A stretch of 12,841 nucleotides of DNA from NCBI GenBank assembly GCA_048940925.1, contig JBHLOC010000075.1:1-12841 (forward strand), given 5' to 3'. Both the position numbers and the translations under genes were made by a program. This document shows positions 4,143 through 12,841 of the stretch, piece by piece. Source of the stretch: Promethearchaeota archaeon. GTDB lineage: Archaea > Asgardarchaeota > Lokiarchaeia > Sigyniarchaeales > SOKP01. Position 1 is the stretch's first letter, and each line of letters opens with the position of its first letter. The notes beneath the pieces are model-generated. The model had not been told where the DNA came from, ran no database searches, and saw nothing but the letters and a program-made list of their open reading frames with translations.

Positions 4143-6161
4143 ATGAGCGACGATAGAAAAAAATTGTGGGAACCATCAGATGAATGGATTAAAAGTGTAG
4201 AAGCGACTCATTTTATTGAATTTGTAAATAAGAATTATGGATCGAATATTAAAGGAGGAAAAGATCTTTATAAATGGTCTGTAGAACAAATACCAGATTT
4301 CTGGGATGCCATGTGGAAGTTTTCAGGTATTATTGCTTCTAAACCATATGATAAAGTAGTTGAAGACTTGAGTGTATTTCCTGGAACAAAATGGTTTCCT
4401 GGGGCAAAAATGAATTTCGCTGAAAATCTTCTTAAGTATAAAGACGATCAATTAGCTTTTATATTTCAGGGTGAGACTAAGGTATCAAAACAAATAACTT
4501 ATGCTGAATTAAACAAAACTGTTGCTCGTTTGGCAAAATCTCTTAAAGATGTTGGAATAAAAGTAAATGATCGCGTTGTTTCATATATTCCAAACTTAAT
4601 TGAAACACCTACGGCAATGCTCGCAACTACTGCTATTGGGGCAATTTGGGCTTCTTGTGGTGCTGAACTTCAGCCAAGTGCGGTTATCGACAGATTTGGT
4701 CAAATTGAACCTAAATTACTTTTTACTGTTGATGGATATTACTATAGAGATAAAGTGTTTGATATTAGAGATAACGTCAAAACGGTTGTAGAGGCTATTC
4801 CTTCAATAGAAAAAGTTGTTATTGTTTCTTACATCTCTGATGGTAAAGCAGATGTTAGTGGTATTCCTAAAGCTCAAAACTGGGAAGATTTCATTTCAAA
4901 AGAAGAAGAACCTAAATTGGAATTTGTACAATTACCTTTTGATCATCCCATCTATATAATGTTCTCTTCAGGAACGACTGGAAAACCAAAATGCATGGTT
5001 CAAAGTGGTGGAGGAGTTCTTATCAATCATTTAAAAGAACTAATTCTCTCCACTGATTGCAAAAGGAGTGATGTTATAAATTATATCACTGCGCCCTCAT
5101 GGATGATGGTTTAAGTATTCCTTATACCAGCCAAAATGTGGAACTGGCTTATCAGTGCCTTAGCCGTGGGCGCAACAATATTCTTATATGACGGAAATCC
5201 ACTATACCCAGATCCATTAAGCTTTTTTGAATTGATTGAAAAGCATAAAATCTCGATATTTGGGACTAGTGCAGCATATATCCATTATTTAATGGGTCTT
5301 GGTGTTAAACCAGGTGAGAAATATAATCTTAGTGCTTTAAGGGAAATATCACAAACAGCATCAACTCTTTCTCCAGAAGGTTTTGAATACGTTTATCATG
5401 AAATTAAGAAAGATCTCTTTTTCAATTCTATTAGTGGTGGAACAGATATCAATGGATGCTTTGCAGGAGCAATTCCAATTCTTCCTGTTTATTCGGGTGA
5501 ATTACAAGGGCGTGCATTAGGAATGAAAGTAGAAGCTTATAATGATAATGCAGAACCCGTTGAAGATGAACAAGCTGAGCTTGTGTGTGAAGCTCCTGCT
5601 CCTTCAATGCCAGTATATTTTTGGGGAGATGATGATAATATGACAAAATATAAGGCTGCTTATTTTGATCACTTTAAGGATAAAGGAAAGAATATATGGA
5701 GGCATGGTGATTATATAGTAATTCATAGCGATACTGGAGGAATAACTTTCTGGGGTCGTTCTGATGCAGTTTTAAAACCTTCAGGTGTAAGAATTGGTAC
5801 TGCTGAAATCTATAATGTAGTGGAACAACTTCCTGAAATCTCAGATTCATTGGTAATCGGTCAACAATGGGAAGGTGATATTCGTATTGTTATGTTTGTC
5901 CTATTAAATGAAGGTTATGAATTAACAGATGAGCTAAAAACAAAAATACAACAAACAATTCGAGAAAAGACAAGTCCACGACATGTACCAAAGTTAATAT
6001 ATGCTGCACCAACTGATGGGATTCCTTACACTTTTAGTAATAAGAAAGTTGAAATTGCTGTGACTAAAATTATACATGGTATAGAAGTAACTAATCGTGG
6101 TGCTCTAAGAAACCCAGAATCTCTGGATTTCTACATGGAAATGAAGGATAAACTTAAATAA
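4143..6161 (+). CDS. acsA: Acetoacetate--CoA ligase (acetoacetyl-CoA synthetase), interrupted; proposed join(4143..5105,5136..6161), 662 aa
   Basis: The ORFs ending at 5114 and starting at 5136 are in the same frame. Likely start is ATG 4143 (MSDDRKKLWEPS). Family motifs: WFPGAKMNFAENLL, YIMFSSGTTGKPK, WM-MWNWL, ISGGTDINGCF, WRHGD, GRSDAVLKPSGVRIGTAEIY, SPRHVP, PYTFSNKKVE. The only visible lesion is the 30-nt insert. Confidence 0.92.
5106..5135 (+). other. Candidate 30-nt bulge-helix-bulge (BHB) mRNA intron
   Basis: ATGGTTTAAGTATTCCTTATACCAGCCAAA contains an in-frame TAA (5112-5114), and its removal gives TGG ATG|ATG TGG AAC TGG (WMMWNW). Manual fold: exon helix 5095-5099/5137-5141, central helix UGGA 5100-5103/GCCA 5130-5133, bulges UGA 5104-5106 and AAA 5134-5136, intron stem 5107-5115/5121-5129. 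Confidence 0.72.
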
Positions 6162-6169
6162 AAAAAATT

Positions 6170-7279
6170 CTAATTCTTTTTTTTTAATTTAAAACATTTT
6201 CTTTTTCTATATAAGCTATCTTCATAATTAGTAAGCATTTCTCGCATTAGATCCATCCCAAGATAGATATTATAACCGATTCCTTCCCATTCACTATTAG
6301 TTTGCCAAATTTTATAGGTTATTTTAAAATAACATTTAACTTGTTGGATAAAATTAATGCTTCCAGACGTGATTACAGTTGATCCTACCTTACCATCACC
6401 ATCATAGTATCCTAAAATAAAAGCTAAATACAGTTCTCTCGAGGCTAATCTTGGTAATTCAATAAATTTGGATTTTTGATTTCCAACTATAAAACCATGT
6501 TTAATTAAACTATTTGCAAATTCGTCATTGACAAACCGAATCCTCACATAATCAGTTAAATCTCCTTCTCTTCTAATTTCAATTTCTTTATGTTCAAGAT
6601 TAAAACCAATGACATTAGCAAATTTATCTAATAAATCTTTCTCATCATCTTTATGCAATTCAACCCCAAATCTGATATTATTTCCATGTTTAGAAAGCCA
6701 AGCTTCTGCGAATAACCATCCTAACCAATAAGCCTTTTCTTTAGTATCAATATATTCGAAATAATCAATTTTTAAGCAAGGATGCCATCTATATATGCCG
6801 TATATCGATTTCTTTGGGTTATTTAAAATTATATATTTACTAAATAACTCAGAGATTTCTCTAGGGACTCTGCATAAATTTTTATTGATTTGAGATTTAT
6901 ACTCTTTAAGCGTTTCAATAGAAATTATGTAATTTGGATCTTGCTTTATCTGATCTTTCTTTTTTTTAATATGAAATCTTGTTTGCCCTAGAACAATACT
7001 TAATTGTTCATCTGTTAATTTACTATTCAATAATCTTTTTTCTGGAATATATTTAGCAATAACTCTTTTTAATTCATATATGAAGCTTAATGTATTATAT
7101 CTATTAGAGTTTATCGAAAATGTATTAAAATTGTTATCTAAATCTTTATAATTATAATTAATATCAATTTTTTTTTTAAAATAGGCTAAATTTTCACTAT
7201 TAGAACACTTTTTTTTAATCTTGTGATTTTGTAAGTAATACAAGTCATCAATTCTTATAATGGATTTGTTTTTAACCAT
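6170..7279 (-). CDS. Free-standing LAGLIDADG-family homing endonuclease-like protein with N-terminal extension
   Basis: YFEYIDTKEKAYWLGWLFAEAWLS (motif 1) and LYLAFILGYYDGDGKV (motif 2), separated by about 100 aa that include LIKHGFIVGNQKS. No intein or intron context is visible. The true start is uncertain. Confidence 0.85.
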   Translation of the reverse strand: MVKNKSIIRIDDLYYLQNHKIKKKCSNSENLAYFKKKIDINYNYKDLDNNFNTFSINSNRYNTLSFIYELKRVIAKYIPEKRLLNSKLTDEQLSIVLGQTRFHIKKKKDQIKQDPNYIISIETLKEYKSQINKNLCRVPREISELFSKYIILNNPKKSIYGIYRWHPCLKIDYFEYIDTKEKAYWLGWLFAEAWLSKHGNNIRFGVELHKDDEKDLLDKFANVIGFNLEHKEIEIRREGDLTDYVRIRFVNDEFANSLIKHGFIVGNQKSKFIELPRLASRELYLAFILGYYDGDGKVGSTVITSGSINFIQQVKCYFKITYKIWQTNSEWEGIGYNIYLGMDLMREMLTNYEDSLYRKRKCFKLKKKN

Positions 7280-9237: not shown

Positions 9238-9369
9238 TTAGGTCAATTTTATCCATAATTTTAAATAGAATTTAAATATTTCATTTCGGTTACAATAATA
9301 TATTAATGCATTTTGTAAAATAATTTAGATTTTTTATTTTAAATAATTTTTTATTATAAATCTTTCGAT

Positions 9370-9510
9370 ATTCTTTATACATTTTCTAATAAGAAGGTCG
9401 AAATCGTGGTAACAAAAATCATCCACGGGAGGGAAGTAACTAATCGTGGCGCTCTTAGAAACCCAGAATCTTTAGATTACTACATGGAGATGAAAGATAA
9501 ACTTAAATAA
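9370..9510 (+). repeat. Second copy of the acetoacetate--CoA ligase 3' end (46 codons plus stop; corresponds to 6021-6161)
   Basis: Translates as ILYTFSNKKVEIVVTKIIHGREVTNRGALRNPESLDYYMEMKDKLK*. By hand, 42/46 aa are identical, with 17 synonymous and 4 non-synonymous codon differences. No start codon or upstream homology. Confidence 0.95.
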
Positions 9511-9584: not shown

Positions 9585-9759
9585 TTAATGAATGTTTATG
9601 CATTTGGCTAAGCATCGGTTCACACATGCATTACAATTTATACATTTTTTTTGGCTGATTTATCTGAACCTTCTTATCTCGTTCATTAAAAAGATAAATT
9701 CCTCGAGGACACACGTCAATACAAACCTTACAACCAATACACTCTTCACGATTTACGAA
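9585..9759 (-). pseudogene. 2x[4Fe-4S] ferredoxin-type domain remnant (5'-truncated, frameshifted)
   Basis: Minus strand reads FVNREECIGCKVCIDVCPRGIYLFNERDKKVQINQP, then one extra base in the T8 run at 9645-9652, then KKCINCNACVNRCLAKCINIH*. Two CxxCxxCxxxC motifs; no in-frame start. Confidence 0.85.
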
Positions 9760-9879
9760 AAGTACAAAGATGGGGAATCTTTAAGAGAGCATCTTGATCA
9801 AGTACCGAAAACGCATGCAAAGTTAATGCCACTTTTAGAGCCAGGGCAAGAATTAAAGAAATGTTATGAAATATTATAA
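9751..9879 (+). pseudogene. C-terminal fragment resembling an ABM/putative quinol monooxygenase domain
   Basis: IYEKYKDGESLREHLDQVPKTHAKLMPLLEPGQELKKCYEIL* resembles the YExY/W...H C-terminal half of ABM domains, and it ends just before the SCP2-like gene. The N-terminal half is replaced by antisense ferredoxin sequence. Confidence 0.5.
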
Positions 9880-9886
9880 AAAAAAT

Positions 9887-10309
9887 ATGGAGGGGATAAA
9901 ATTAACAGCAGAAAATTATGTTGACAAAAGAAAAAGATTTTACGAATCATTAAATAACAATAATAAGTTTAAAGAAAAATTTAAAGATGAAAAATTTAAA
10001 ATTCTCTTAAATCCAAAGGATGGTAAATACGCAGCATTAATTATTGTTGAAAAAGGTACCGTTTCAGTTGAGAAGTTACCGAATTATCCTATAAGTAATT
10101 TTGATGAAAATATCTTAGGATGGGATGCCATGATGCAAACAACGTTAGAAATATTTGACGAAATTGGACAAGGAAAACTCTCAACTAGTGCTATAATGAA
10201 AAAGGTACTTATGCGTAAAATTAAAATGAAAAATCCTATCCTCCTACTTAAACTCAACGAAAACGATGAATTATTAAAAGAAGAAGGAAAAAATTCTTTA
10301 CTTCTTTAA
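9887..10309 (+). CDS. SCP2 sterol/lipid-binding-domain-like protein
   Basis: FYESLNNNNKFKEKF...ILLNPKDGKYAALIIVEKGTVSV...WDAMMQTTLEIFDEIGQGKLS...KVLMRKIKMKNPILLLKL fits the SCP2 fold pattern. ATG 9887 is preferred; ATG 9866 is the alternative. Confidence 0.7.
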   Translation: MEGIKLTAENYVDKRKRFYESLNNNNKFKEKFKDEKFKILLNPKDGKYAALIIVEKGTVSVEKLPNYPISNFDENILGWDAMMQTTLEIFDEIGQGKLSTSAIMKKVLMRKIKMKNPILLLKLNENDELLKEEGKNSLLL

Positions 10310-10380
10310 ATTATATTTTTAGCTGAAAAAAAAATTATTAAATAGAACTATTAAAAAGACTTTTTCTTCCTTAATTTTTA

Positions 10381-10635
10381 CTTATAAATGAAGATTATGA
10401 ATTAAATGATGAATTAAAGACAAAAATTCGGCAATCTCTACTTGAGAAGACCTTCCCAAGACATGTTCCAAAGCTTATCTACGCAACTCCACCTGACGGC
10501 ATTCCATATACCTTCAGTGATAAAAAGGTCGAAATTACAGTCACTAAAATCATCTACAGCATGGAAGTCAACCGCGGTGGCCTTAGAAACCTAAAATCGC
10601 TAGACTTCTGCATGGAAATGAAGGATAAACTTTAA
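10381..10635 (+). repeat. Third, more decayed copy of the acetoacetate--CoA ligase 3' end (84 codons plus stop; corresponds to 5901-6158)
   Basis: LINEDYELNDELKTKIRQSLLEKTFPRHVPKLIYATPPDGIPYTFSDKKVEITVTKIIYSMEV-NRGGLRNLKSLDFCMEMKDKL*. By hand, 65/84 aa are identical with one codon deleted. 22 nt are identical at the end (6134-6155 = 10611-10632). Confidence 0.95.
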
Positions 10636-10804: not shown

Positions 10805-12259
10805 CTAATGCCTATTAACGCCCAATTCTATTGCTCTATCTGAAAGAATTTTAGTTACAATTTCAACATCCTTATTAATGGTTCGTTTAGCATATACCCA
10901 CATTATTATACCAGGAAGAGCCAGTAAAAATAGAATCAATGCAGTGATTTCAAAGTTGTTATAGGTTATGATTAATAATAAGGAAGCTATAGTAGGTCCA
11001 ATTCCTTGTCCAATTGTTTCCACAAATTGATTCCATGATGAAACTATCCCTTGTGCTTCTGGAAGATTTATTGTTTGGAGGACTGGTGGTTGATTAGTGT
11101 TATAAAGAATTGAAACAGTAAATCTAGTAAATAAAAGTATTCCTAACACCCATATCCAAGCGGATTGTAGTAAGAAAAGGATGTTATTTCCTTCTAGTAA
11201 CGAAAATCCTGGTAGCGGAATGAGAAAAAATACCAATTGGATGATTCCTACTAAAATTAACGCTAAAATGATCAAATTTAAACGTTTTTTAATATCCTTG
11301 CTTCCCCATTTATCCGATCTCTTTGAAAATAAGATAGTGCCTGCAATTGTACCTGGTACTGCAAAAATTATCATAAATAAAGCAACTGATATTGAACTAA
11401 GATTATTAGGTTCTTGCTGAAGAAATAATACCATTAAAAATTGCACAGTCCCGAATAAAATCCATGAAAAAATACCTTCTATTAATGCGAGTAAGTTTGT
11501 TGATCTAAAAATAGTTAATCTCACAGTATTTTTTGTCATACGGTAATCATATTTTACGTATGAATCTTGATTAGATAAAACAGCTTTTAGTTCATCTGAT
11601 GAGTGTAATCCTCTAATTGGTTCCCGAATATGCAGGAAAACGTTTACAGCGCTCAAAATAATTAATATTCCTATTATCCAAAAATATAACCTCCAAAATC
11701 CATTCTGAATTAAAATAGCTGAAAAGATCATCCCTATGGGTATAAATAATGAGCCAACTGAATAATACCTTCCGAAAAATGCTGAACGATTATCCTTTTC
11801 AAGAAAATCATTTGTATAGCTAAGTAAAATAGGTCTAATCCCACCAATTCCAAACCCTGATAGAATGCTAGCAATTATATATATATACCATGTATTCATG
11901 CCTTGTCCTGCGGGAGGAATTCCATATAGGGTCCAAGCAATTCCCGTTAGTAAAAGCACAAATATCAGCAATTTCTTACGAGAATATCTATCTGTCAACC
12001 CTCCTATTAATATACCAGAAAAAGCAGTAGCCCAGAGACTTGTTGTAAGTATTAAACCCATCTCTAAAAGATGAACTGATTCACCTGGCCATATAATATT
12101 AGATAATGTTATCATGTTTATTATTATTGTTGCATGAGTTAGAGAAATAAAGGCATAAGATAGCATTATTGGCCATAATTCTTTTATCCTTGAATTTTTC
12201 TCAGTAACTCCAGATTTCAACTTTTTTCGATTTAAAAATTCATGTACCATTAAAATCAC
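10805..12259 (-). CDS. Major facilitator superfamily transporter
   Basis: 484 aa with about 12 hydrophobic segments, motif A (GGLTDRYSRK) and the C-domain counterpart (SKRSDKWGSK). Confidence 0.93.
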   Translation of the reverse strand: MILMVHEFLNRKKLKSGVTEKNSRIKELWPIMLSYAFISLTHATIIINMITLSNIIWPGESVHLLEMGLILTTSLWATAFSGILIGGLTDRYSRKKLLIFVLLLTGIAWTLYGIPPAGQGMNTWYIYIIASILSGFGIGGIRPILLSYTNDFLEKDNRSAFFGRYYSVGSLFIPIGMIFSAILIQNGFWRLYFWIIGILIILSAVNVFLHIREPIRGLHSSDELKAVLSNQDSYVKYDYRMTKNTVRLTIFRSTNLLALIEGIFSWILFGTVQFLMVLFLQQEPNNLSSISVALFMIIFAVPGTIAGTILFSKRSDKWGSKDIKKRLNLIILALILVGIIQLVFFLIPLPGFSLLEGNNILFLLQSAWIWVLGILLFTRFTVSILYNTNQPPVLQTINLPEAQGIVSSWNQFVETIGQGIGPTIASLLLIITYNNFEITALILFLLALPGIIMWVYAKRTINKDVEIVTKILSDRAIELGVNRH

Positions 12260-12440: not shown

Positions 12441-12841
12441 ATGGCTGAAACTGAACAAGATATATTCCATCTATTCGAATTATTATTTGAAAAATTTACT
12501 AAGTTGGAGGAAAGTTTTCCTCCAATGAGAAAAAAAATAGGAAAAAAATTCTCTATTGTCCAACTAGTTGGAAATAATAAAACGTGCAATATGAAGGATA
12601 TTGTTGAAAATTTAAATTTACCTTCGAGTACAGCAACCAGGCAAGTCGATAAATTAGTTAGTTTAGATTTAATCAAACGAGAAATACCTCCCGATAATAG
12701 AAGAATGGTTATTCTATCTCTCACAGATTCTGGTCAGAAATTTTACTCAAATTATAAGGAACATCGGAACCTTGTTGAAAACAAATTAATAAAAGCATTA
12801 TCTGATCATGAGAAGGAAGTTCTTATAAAAATATTAAACAG
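12441..12841 (+). CDS. MarR-family winged-helix transcriptional regulator, 3' end outside window
   Basis: Not in the ORF track because it is open at the window end. MAETEQDIFHLFELLF...CNMKDIVENLNLPSSTATRQVDKLVSLDLIKREIPPDNRRMVILSLTDSGQKFY...LSDHEKEVLIKILN has the HTH, the D-x-R-R wing and the LTxxG motif. Confidence 0.93.
   Translation, partial: MAETEQDIFHLFELLFEKFTKLEESFPPMRKKIGKKFSIVQLVGNNKTCNMKDIVENLNLPSSTATRQVDKLVSLDLIKREIPPDNRRMVILSLTDSGQKFYSNYKEHRNLVENKLIKALSDHEKEVLIKILN
12504..12525. repeat. Inverted repeat TTGGAGGAAA-gt-TTTCCTCCAA inside the MarR gene
   Basis: Perfect 10-bp arms with a 2-nt spacer. Confidence 0.7.

What the first reader, a model, noticed from the sequence alone, without database searches (positions are those of the whole stretch)
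5087..5157. Candidate bulge-helix-bulge (tRNA-type) intron in the mRNA of a metabolic enzyme
Seen in sequence: an otherwise intact acetoacetate-CoA ligase is broken by 30 nt with an in-frame TAA in the conserved WMMWNW motif. Only four excision registers restore the motif (starting at 5106 to 5109). Folding by hand gives: exon helix C5095-G5141, C5096-G5140, U.U, C5098-G5138, A5099-U5137; central helix U5100-A5133, G5101-C5132, G5102-C5131, A5103.G5130 (one mismatch); 3-nt bulges UG^A (5104-5106) and AA^A (5134-5136) on opposite strands; intron hairpin UGGUUUAAG-uauuc-CUUAUACCA (8 of 9 pairs). CACUG 5087-5091 can also pair with CAGUG 5153-5157. Established: archaeal splicing endonuclease EndA cuts after the second nucleotide of each bulge and RtcB-type ligases join the exons; BHB introns are typical of tRNA and rRNA, and the well-documented mRNA case is crenarchaeal cbf5. 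Applying that rule excises exactly 5106-5135, one of the four valid registers, and yields a 662-aa protein. Inference: this is a spliced protein-coding gene outside cbf5, probably in an Asgard-like archaeon, which pipelines would call a pseudogene or two genes. The stop codon makes full-length enzyme dependent on splicing, so splicing could be regulatory.
Basis: partly seen in the sequence, partly recalled or inferred. Interest (0 to 1): 0.95.

Follow-up and report, generated by a model that had tools for sequence, protein, structure and literature searches.

The report
Mobile tRNA-type intron in Asgard ligase
A healthy metabolic enzyme gene of an Asgard archaeon is broken by a 30-base insert shaped like a tRNA intron, so its messenger RNA very probably has to be cut and rejoined (shown inside only one archaeal coding gene, cbf5, in the papers I could search), and the insert appears to spread between related species, possibly helped by a DNA-cutting gene next door.

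Summary
Confirmed. A 30-nt insert with an in-frame TAA (5106-5135) splits an acetoacetate-CoA ligase gene of a Lokiarchaeia (Asgard) genome. The bulge-helix-bulge (BHB) rule picks one of four valid registers and gives 662 aa, the length of intact orthologs. The same insert occurs in 22 of 135 family genomes. Its hairpin and a flanking exon helix co-vary, and both gene halves are under purifying selection (dN/dS 0.07 and 0.04). The genome encodes two EndA subunits and RtcB and has at least six other genes with 30-31-nt BHB inserts. Intron alleles are scattered over the gene tree, with conversion tracts starting at the intron. The adjacent LAGLIDADG-fold gene lies behind 7 of 15 intron alleles versus 1 of 57 intron-less ones (not significant after tree correction), suggesting collaborative homing. 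No RNA run was listed, so splicing is inferred (about 0.9); a regulatory role is unsupported. The scan already reported this intron in the paralog and two other genomes, and many similar Asgard introns.

The parts
4143..5105 (+). Exon 1 of acetoacetate-CoA ligase (codons 1-321, ending ...APSWM)
   Evidence: dN/dS 0.074 among intron alleles
5106..5135 (+). 30-nt BHB-type intron in the register predicted by cutting after the second base of each bulge; in-frame TAA at 5112-5114
5136..6161 (+). Exon 2 (341 codons starting MWNWL, plus stop)
   Evidence: dN/dS 0.044
5107..5129 (+). Intron hairpin h': 9-bp stem 5107-5115:5121-5129 with a 5-nt variable loop
   Evidence: 5 of 9 pairs have two-sided compensatory changes, 96% of cells paired
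5100..5136 (+). BHB core: central helix 5100-5103:5130-5133 (3 pairs plus A.G; a full A-U pair in allele L044), bulges 5104-5106 and 5134-5136
   Evidence: the non-coding partner bases 5131-5133 are invariant in 22 alleles
5090..5174 (+). Exon scaffold: helix P1 5090-5096:5168-5174, exon helix h 5098-5099:5137-5138, hairpin P3 5143-5147:5152-5156; formed by synonymous codon choices typical of intron-bearing alleles
   Evidence: 3 of 7 P1 pairs with two-sided changes; pair probability 0.8-1.0 for P1
6170..7279 (-). Free-standing two-motif LAGLIDADG-fold gene, convergent, 8 bp from the ligase stop; candidate mobiliser of the intron
9358..9510 (+). Displaced, degenerate copy of the ligase 3' end (tail 1)
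10369..10635 (+). Displaced, degenerate copy of the ligase 3' end (tail 2)

Best explanation
The insert is a minimal archaeal BHB intron in an mRNA. Shown in sequence: the pre-mRNA can form a 9-bp intron hairpin, a 4-position central helix between two 3-nt bulges, and an exon scaffold kept by synonymous codon choice. Inferred from established EndA chemistry: the host's two-subunit EndA cuts at 5105/5106 and 5135/5136, and a ligase (RtcB is present) joins the exons, giving the normal 662-aa enzyme; unspliced RNA stops at TAA after 323 codons. Shown by comparison: the intron with 60 to more than 400 nt of flanking exon DNA has moved between gene lineages and has also been lost precisely. Inferred, less firmly (about 0.55): the neighbouring LAGLIDADG enzyme cuts intron-less alleles at the Trp/Met-codon junction, and repair copies the intron, often together with the endonuclease gene (collaborative homing). 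The intron would then be a tolerated selfish passenger and not a regulator.
For: Same insert, same length and site in 22/135 genomes. Covariation: 8 pairs with two-sided changes against 2.8 in shuffles (0/500), and 92.8% of cells paired against 28-42% for slid partners. dN/dS of both halves equals that of intact alleles while dS is about 2. Two EndA genes, one with the Tyr/His/Lys motifs and one without (read against the known M. jannaschii triad from my own knowledge), and RtcB. Motif-free census in the same genome: 9 of 28 candidates are 30-31 nt; 8 of these have a BHB of exactly the homology-defined length at or near the best register, two of them 31 nt long and four with perfect central helices. 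Ab initio, the true geometry gives 21 perfect-helix ORF-joining hits against 7-12 for nine control geometries. Mobility: monophyly of intron alleles is rejected (p-AU 4e-39 and 5e-9); breakpoint at codon -5 between this gene and L043 (56% of codons differ before, 11% after; permutation p 0.0005); local tracts in L183/L037 and L182/L083, and a precise 30-nt absence in L182. Endonuclease: LAGLIDADG fold (pLDDT 92.9, all top 50 Foldseek hits); all five orthologs at 66% identity or more lie behind intron alleles; 7/15 against 1/57; 4 of 8 metagenome intron loci with enough flank also carry it; the junction is the most conserved 20-nt DNA window of intron-less alleles (0.967, next best 0.908).
Against: No spliced RNA or cleavage was observed here. 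The central helix has an A.G (or A.A) mismatch in 21 of 22 alleles, its three pairs never vary and so give no covariation evidence, and it is weakly populated in the predicted ensemble. The length (30, a multiple of 3), the in-frame TAA and the AAA-ATG restart are invariant, which a translation-level mechanism would also predict. The endonuclease association is not significant on independent pairs (3.9 same direction, 0.0 opposite, median p 0.125), 8 of 15 intron alleles lack it, and the other introns of the genome have no such neighbour. Exon similarity near the intron reflects both structure and conversion, and these cannot be fully separated.
Confidence: 0.88

Rival explanations
1. Split gene: translation stops at TAA 5112 and restarts at ATG 5136; the two polypeptides assemble, and the hairpin tunes coupling.
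For: TAA is invariant in all 22 distinct alleles, an A-rich stretch and ATG follow, and both halves are under purifying selection.
Against: The break lies inside the WMMWNW motif, which is continuous in 119 of 120 full-length homologs. The ATG is simply the conserved Met codon. This reading does not explain the invariant non-coding CCA that complements exon UGG at exact 3-4-3 spacing, nor the same architecture in other genes where the junction offers no ATG.
Confidence: 0.05
2. Translational recoding: the ribosome hops from ATG 5106 to the matching ATG 5136 (T4 gene 60 style), or reads through TAA.
For: Matching ATG codons 30 nt apart flank a hairpin with a stop; the length is always a multiple of three.
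Against: Allele L054 has ATA, not ATG, at the take-off position; the stop is two codons after the take-off, not adjacent; the codon before the stop varies and has no landing match. Readthrough would put 10 freely varying residues into the motif. Sister inserts of 31 nt exist.
Confidence: 0.04
3. Pseudogene or assembly artefact.
For: The genome holds a second copy of the gene and degenerate gene tails; the bin has 8.4% contamination.
Against: The insert occurs in 22 genomes and 15 metagenome contigs; dN/dS is 0.04-0.07 at dS about 2; the second copy carries the same insert; no other lesion is present.
Confidence: 0.01
4. Sub-rival on history only: the intron is ancestral to the family and was repeatedly lost by recombination with intron-less DNA or cDNA; the endonuclease is a hitch-hiking neighbour that came with a 3'-end replacement and does not cut the intron site.
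For: Precise loss is seen (L182, probably L090 and L078). Displaced 3' tails also occur at intron-less loci. Other introns lack an endonuclease neighbour. The independent-pairs test is not significant.
Against: The two paralogs of this genome differ at 64-67% of synonymous sites yet carry identical inserts. The L003/L043 tract begins five codons before the intron and both loci carry the endonuclease at 87% identity. Full-length close orthologs were never found beside an intron-less allele.
Confidence: 0.35

Closest known systems
cbf5 pre-mRNA BHB intron of Desulfurococcales and Sulfolobales (Watanabe 2002; Yoshinari 2006; Yokobori 2009, PMC2738675)
   Same: Short ORF-less insert in a conserved motif of a coding sequence, unconventional BHB, host with a two-subunit EndA, precise secondary losses.
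   Different: Different phylum and a metabolic gene. cbf5 was gained once and mostly inherited vertically, whereas this one is scattered with conversion tracts. It is one of many such introns in one genome. Splicing is demonstrated for cbf5 and only inferred here.
BHB intron in the 5' UTR of Haloferax volcanii HVO_1309 (PMC7714728)
   Same: An mRNA substrate of the splicing endonuclease.
   Different: Lies in the UTR and does not interrupt a reading frame.
Asgard tRNA introns (bioRxiv 10.64898/2026.10.13.758758; PMC11291895)
   Same: Same lineage, same enzyme (two-subunit EndA), repeated gains, BHB boundaries, relaxed motifs.
   Different: Those papers cover tRNA genes only, and the preprint found no general route of arrival. 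This insert has no copy in any tRNA gene of the genome.
Collaborative homing in T3/T7-like phages, a cyanophage and ICP1 (described in PMC10448857); trans homing by T4 mobE (PMC2790892)
   Same: ORF-less intron in a conserved gene with a free-standing homing endonuclease gene beside it, and one-sided co-conversion.
   Different: Known cases are phage group I introns with non-LAGLIDADG enzymes as far as I read; here it is a host-spliced 30-nt BHB intron and a LAGLIDADG gene on an archaeal chromosome. Cleavage is untested.
Archaeal rRNA BHB introns that encode LAGLIDADG enzymes (I-DmoI, I-Tsp061I; PMC4496867)
   Same: BHB intron plus LAGLIDADG endonuclease.
   Different: There the enzyme is encoded inside an rRNA intron; here it is 1 kb outside an mRNA intron.

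Membership tests
Archaeal BHB (EndA-spliced) intron | Two 3-nt bulges on opposite strands around a 4-position central helix | tested here: met
   Geometry present in all 22 alleles
Archaeal BHB (EndA-spliced) intron | Strict canonical 4-bp central helix | tested here: not met
   A.G mismatch in this allele and 20 others mismatched; full pairing only in L044. It is a relaxed motif, as reported for cbf5 (PMC2738675), and not a canonical one.
Archaeal BHB (EndA-spliced) intron | Flanking helices (intron h' and exon h) maintained by selection | tested here: met
   h' has 5 of 9 pairs with two-sided changes; h is 2 bp in 21 of 22 alleles, plus helix P1
Archaeal BHB (EndA-spliced) intron | Cuts after the second bulge base restore the functional sequence | tested here: met
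   5106-5135 is one of four valid registers; 662 aa
Archaeal BHB (EndA-spliced) intron | Host encodes EndA and an RNA ligase | tested here: met
   Two EndA genes and RtcB
Archaeal BHB (EndA-spliced) intron | Spliced RNA exists and EndA cleaves the precursor | not testable with these tools
   No RNA run was listed; needs RNA data or an assay
LAGLIDADG homing endonuclease (6170-7279) | LAGLIDADG fold with two motifs bearing acidic residues | tested here: met
   Motifs WLFAEA and YYDGDG; model pLDDT 92.9; Foldseek hits are all LAGLIDADG; Pfam LAGLIDADG_3 is below its cut-off (19.6 against 22.5 bits)
Collaborative homing | Endonuclease gene linked to intron alleles, with co-conversion between them | tested here: inconclusive
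   7/15 against 1/57; breakpoint at the intron in L003/L043; independent-pairs median p 0.125
Collaborative homing | Enzyme cuts the intron-less insertion site and the intron protects | not testable with these tools
   Needs a cleavage assay
Programmed ribosome bypass (T4 gene 60 type) | Conserved matching take-off and landing codons with a stop next to the take-off | tested here: not met
   L054 has ATA at the take-off; the stop is not adjacent
Group I or II self-splicing intron | Ribozyme core of hundreds of nucleotides | tested here: not met
   Insert is 30 nt; no Rfam match near a gathering score

The most novel reading that the evidence does not exclude
Lokiarchaeia routinely splice many mRNAs with the tRNA endonuclease, and this locus shows one way such introns arrive and persist: a free-standing LAGLIDADG enzyme cuts the codon-locked Trp/Met junction of intron-less alleles and drives a 30-nt host-spliced intron, with its self-built exon scaffold, through the population. 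That would be collaborative homing of a BHB mRNA intron on an archaeal chromosome.
Probability: 0.5. Interest if true: 0.92.

Novelty: new variant of a known kind. Interest (0 to 1): 0.82.

Why it matters
In the papers I could search, splicing inside an archaeal coding sequence is documented for cbf5 only. If confirmed, the closest prokaryotic relatives of eukaryotes splice ordinary metabolic mRNAs, with at least about ten such introns estimated in this genome. Pipelines would call these genes split or dead, which distorts Asgard metabolic reconstructions. The locus also gives a directly testable route of intron gain (endonuclease-driven conversion), which a 2026 preprint on Asgard tRNA introns leaves open. 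It is a small system that can be tested in vitro with EndA, RtcB, one endonuclease and short substrates.

Tried and rejected
Search for a full-length database protein identical to the spliced product: best 88% over the N-half; the two closest to other intron alleles that I traced lie on intron-less contigs, one labelled metagenome and one a 20-kb multi-gene contig, so they are not transcript evidence. Rfam: nothing relevant. Promoter and terminator scan: nothing above chance, and bacterial-type only. The insert has no other copy in the genome except in the paralog. Ribosome hop and readthrough: rejected as above. Idea that all mini-introns of the genome have LAGLIDADG neighbours, or that distant homologs of the endonuclease flank other introns: not seen. 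The first loose ab initio scan (4838 hits) was too unspecific. The binomial figure (25/28 pairs) is inflated by my filter and is not used. PMC3064391 (Tocchini-Valentini 2011) was not held, so any predicted mRNA introns in it or in subscription journals were not checked. One row of alignment A1 was mis-specified; A2 replaces it.

Full report
Observation. The ORFs 4143-5114 and 5136-6161 are in one frame and match consecutive halves of acetoacetate-CoA ligase models. Removing 30 nt from any of four starts (5106-5109) restores WMMWNW and 662 aa, the usual length of intact homologs. Cutting after the second base of each bulge gives 5106-5135. The host genome is 4.8 Mb with 29.6% GC and intron-rich tRNAs. 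Its closest homologs come from records mostly titled Promethearchaeota, so the host is a Lokiarchaeia-type Asgard archaeon. It encodes two EndA subunits and RtcB.

The insert is real and selected. A pattern allowing 6-36 nt between the exon codons found the insert in 22 of 135 family genomes from 8 of 13 genera, always 30 nt and always with TAA as its third codon. Fifteen metagenome contigs also carry it (that pattern forced the TAA). Intron alleles are synonymously saturated (median dS about 2), yet both halves show dN/dS of 0.074 and 0.044, the same as intact alleles (0.077 and 0.046). On 22 distinct alleles the proposed structure is 92.8% paired, with 8 pairs showing two-sided changes against 2.8 in shuffles, and 28-42% pairing when partners are slid. 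These shuffles ignore relatedness, and the structure was derived from these sequences. Only the 5-nt loop varies freely. One allele (L044) has a fully paired central helix.

Revised fold. Synonymous codons from about -6 to +14 around the junction are nearly fixed in intron alleles (identity 0.65-0.72 against 0.44-0.45 in intron-less alleles) and nowhere else in the gene. They build helix P1 (5090-5096:5168-5174), with compensatory synonymous changes in L034, L036 and L050, and hairpin P3 (5143-5147:5152-5156). Intron-less alleles have no consensus fold here (RNAalifold -1.2 against -25.9 kcal/mol). The BHB core is weak in the naked-RNA model (about 4% in this allele, 7.5 kcal/mol above the minimum) but present in the minimum-energy fold of 10 of 22 alleles. 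I infer that the exon scaffold brings the two bulges together and that EndA binding completes the fold.

It is one of a family. A census that used only protein homology to intact paralogs gave 28 candidates, 9 of them 30-31 nt. Eight of these nine (seven genes, counting the two ligase copies once) have a BHB of exactly that length at or close to the best register. They include a Rab-like GTPase (C78), an E1-like gene (C87) and an FeS protein (C77), and two are 31 nt long. None of the other candidates had a BHB of its homology-defined length. An ab initio scan found 21 ORF-joining hairpins with a perfect central helix for the true geometry against 7-12 for nine control geometries, an excess of about ten. 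The shared architecture (1 + 9 + 5 or 6 + 9 + 4 + 2) explains the 30-nt length without appeal to reading frame, and the 31-nt cases argue against readthrough.

It moves. Intron alleles are not one clade on trees of either gene half (p-AU 4e-39 and 5e-9), and on the 5' half they need 16 changes against 17.9 for shuffled labels. This gene and L043 differ at 56% of codons up to codon -5 and at 11% afterwards. L051, L022 and L019 show the converse break against their intron-less 5' neighbours. L183/L037 and L182/L083 are about 95% identical except for 60-150 nt around the site, and L182 has the intron-type flanks with the 30 nt precisely absent. The two paralogs in this genome differ at about 65% of synonymous sites but share an identical insert. 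Gain by conversion and precise loss both seem to occur; direction cannot be fixed for each pair.

Candidate driver. The convergent gene 6170-7279 has two LAGLIDADG-like motifs and that fold. All five close orthologs in 135 genomes lie behind intron alleles. It or a remnant follows 7 of 15 intron alleles and 1 of 57 intron-less alleles (Fisher p 3e-5, which overstates because kin are not independent), and 4 of 8 metagenome intron loci with enough flank. On independent pairs the direction is consistent but not significant (median p 0.125). The junction, made of Trp and Met codons, is the most invariant DNA of the gene, as expected of a homing target. This matches collaborative homing as described for phages (PMC10448857). 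It remains an inference, and it does not extend to the other introns of the genome.

Comparison and verdict. It works like the cbf5 intron (PMC2738675) and meets the testable features of a relaxed BHB intron, but not the strict 4-bp helix; splicing itself is untested here. PMC7714728 names cbf5 and a Haloferax 5' UTR as the known mRNA cases, and recent Asgard intron papers cover tRNAs only. My literature search misses most subscription journals. Earlier notes of this scan reported the same intron in the paralog and in two other genomes, similar introns in many Asgard genes, and spliced RNA for dnaG and a Jordarchaeum gene. I did not check those RNA claims and do not count them as evidence. Verdict: a new variant of a known kind; splicing about 0.88, endonuclease-assisted spread about 0.55, regulation unsupported.

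Noticed in passing
window 9358-9510 and 10369-10635; G000:C57 about 72100-73700; also G004, G005, G008, G009, G012, G025, G027: One to three degenerate copies of the ligase's last 50-90 codons lie downstream of the gene, at intron-bearing and intron-less loci. This suggests repeated integration of cargo by recombination into the gene's 3' end.
   Followed up: partly
window 5112-5114: The in-frame TAA is invariant in all alleles while most other stem positions vary. Unexplained: AT bias, selection for early termination of unspliced RNA, or protection from the endonuclease.
   Followed up: partly
G000:C57:77604-77633 (-): Second ligase copy with an identical insert and its own downstream LAGLIDADG gene; 81% DNA identity over 3.4 kb to the window locus.
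   Followed up: yes
G000 C78:59796-, C87:16461-, C77:31189-, C32:27924-, C18:48893-, C71:54629+: Other 30-31-nt BHB inserts supported by paralog homology (first base and strand given).
   Followed up: partly
G000 C30:66095+, C40:183154-, C55:87508-, C64:13206-, C68:45887-, C90:12304-, C64:1914-, C40:67536-, C62:7991-: Ab initio BHB intron candidates that join long ORFs; not checked by homology, and about half of such hits are expected by chance.
   Followed up: no
G000:C58:85082 (+): A 30-nt homology-defined insert that failed my BHB filter.
   Followed up: no
G000:C3:50049-50141: tRNA-Sec predicted by ARAGORN; many tRNAs of the genome carry introns or are missed (34 called).
   Followed up: no
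L082 (DATKTW010000043.1), L058, L063, L073, L088, L108: Records titled Nanopelagicaceae, Hermodarchaeota, Odinarchaeota, Thorarchaeota or Helarchaeota carry ligases 75-86% identical to this one; probably mislabelled or mis-binned Lokiarchaeia.
   Followed up: no
window 9592-10309, 10805-12259, 12441-12839: Two small unassigned ORFs between the displaced tails, an MFS transporter and a MarR regulator follow the locus.
   Followed up: no
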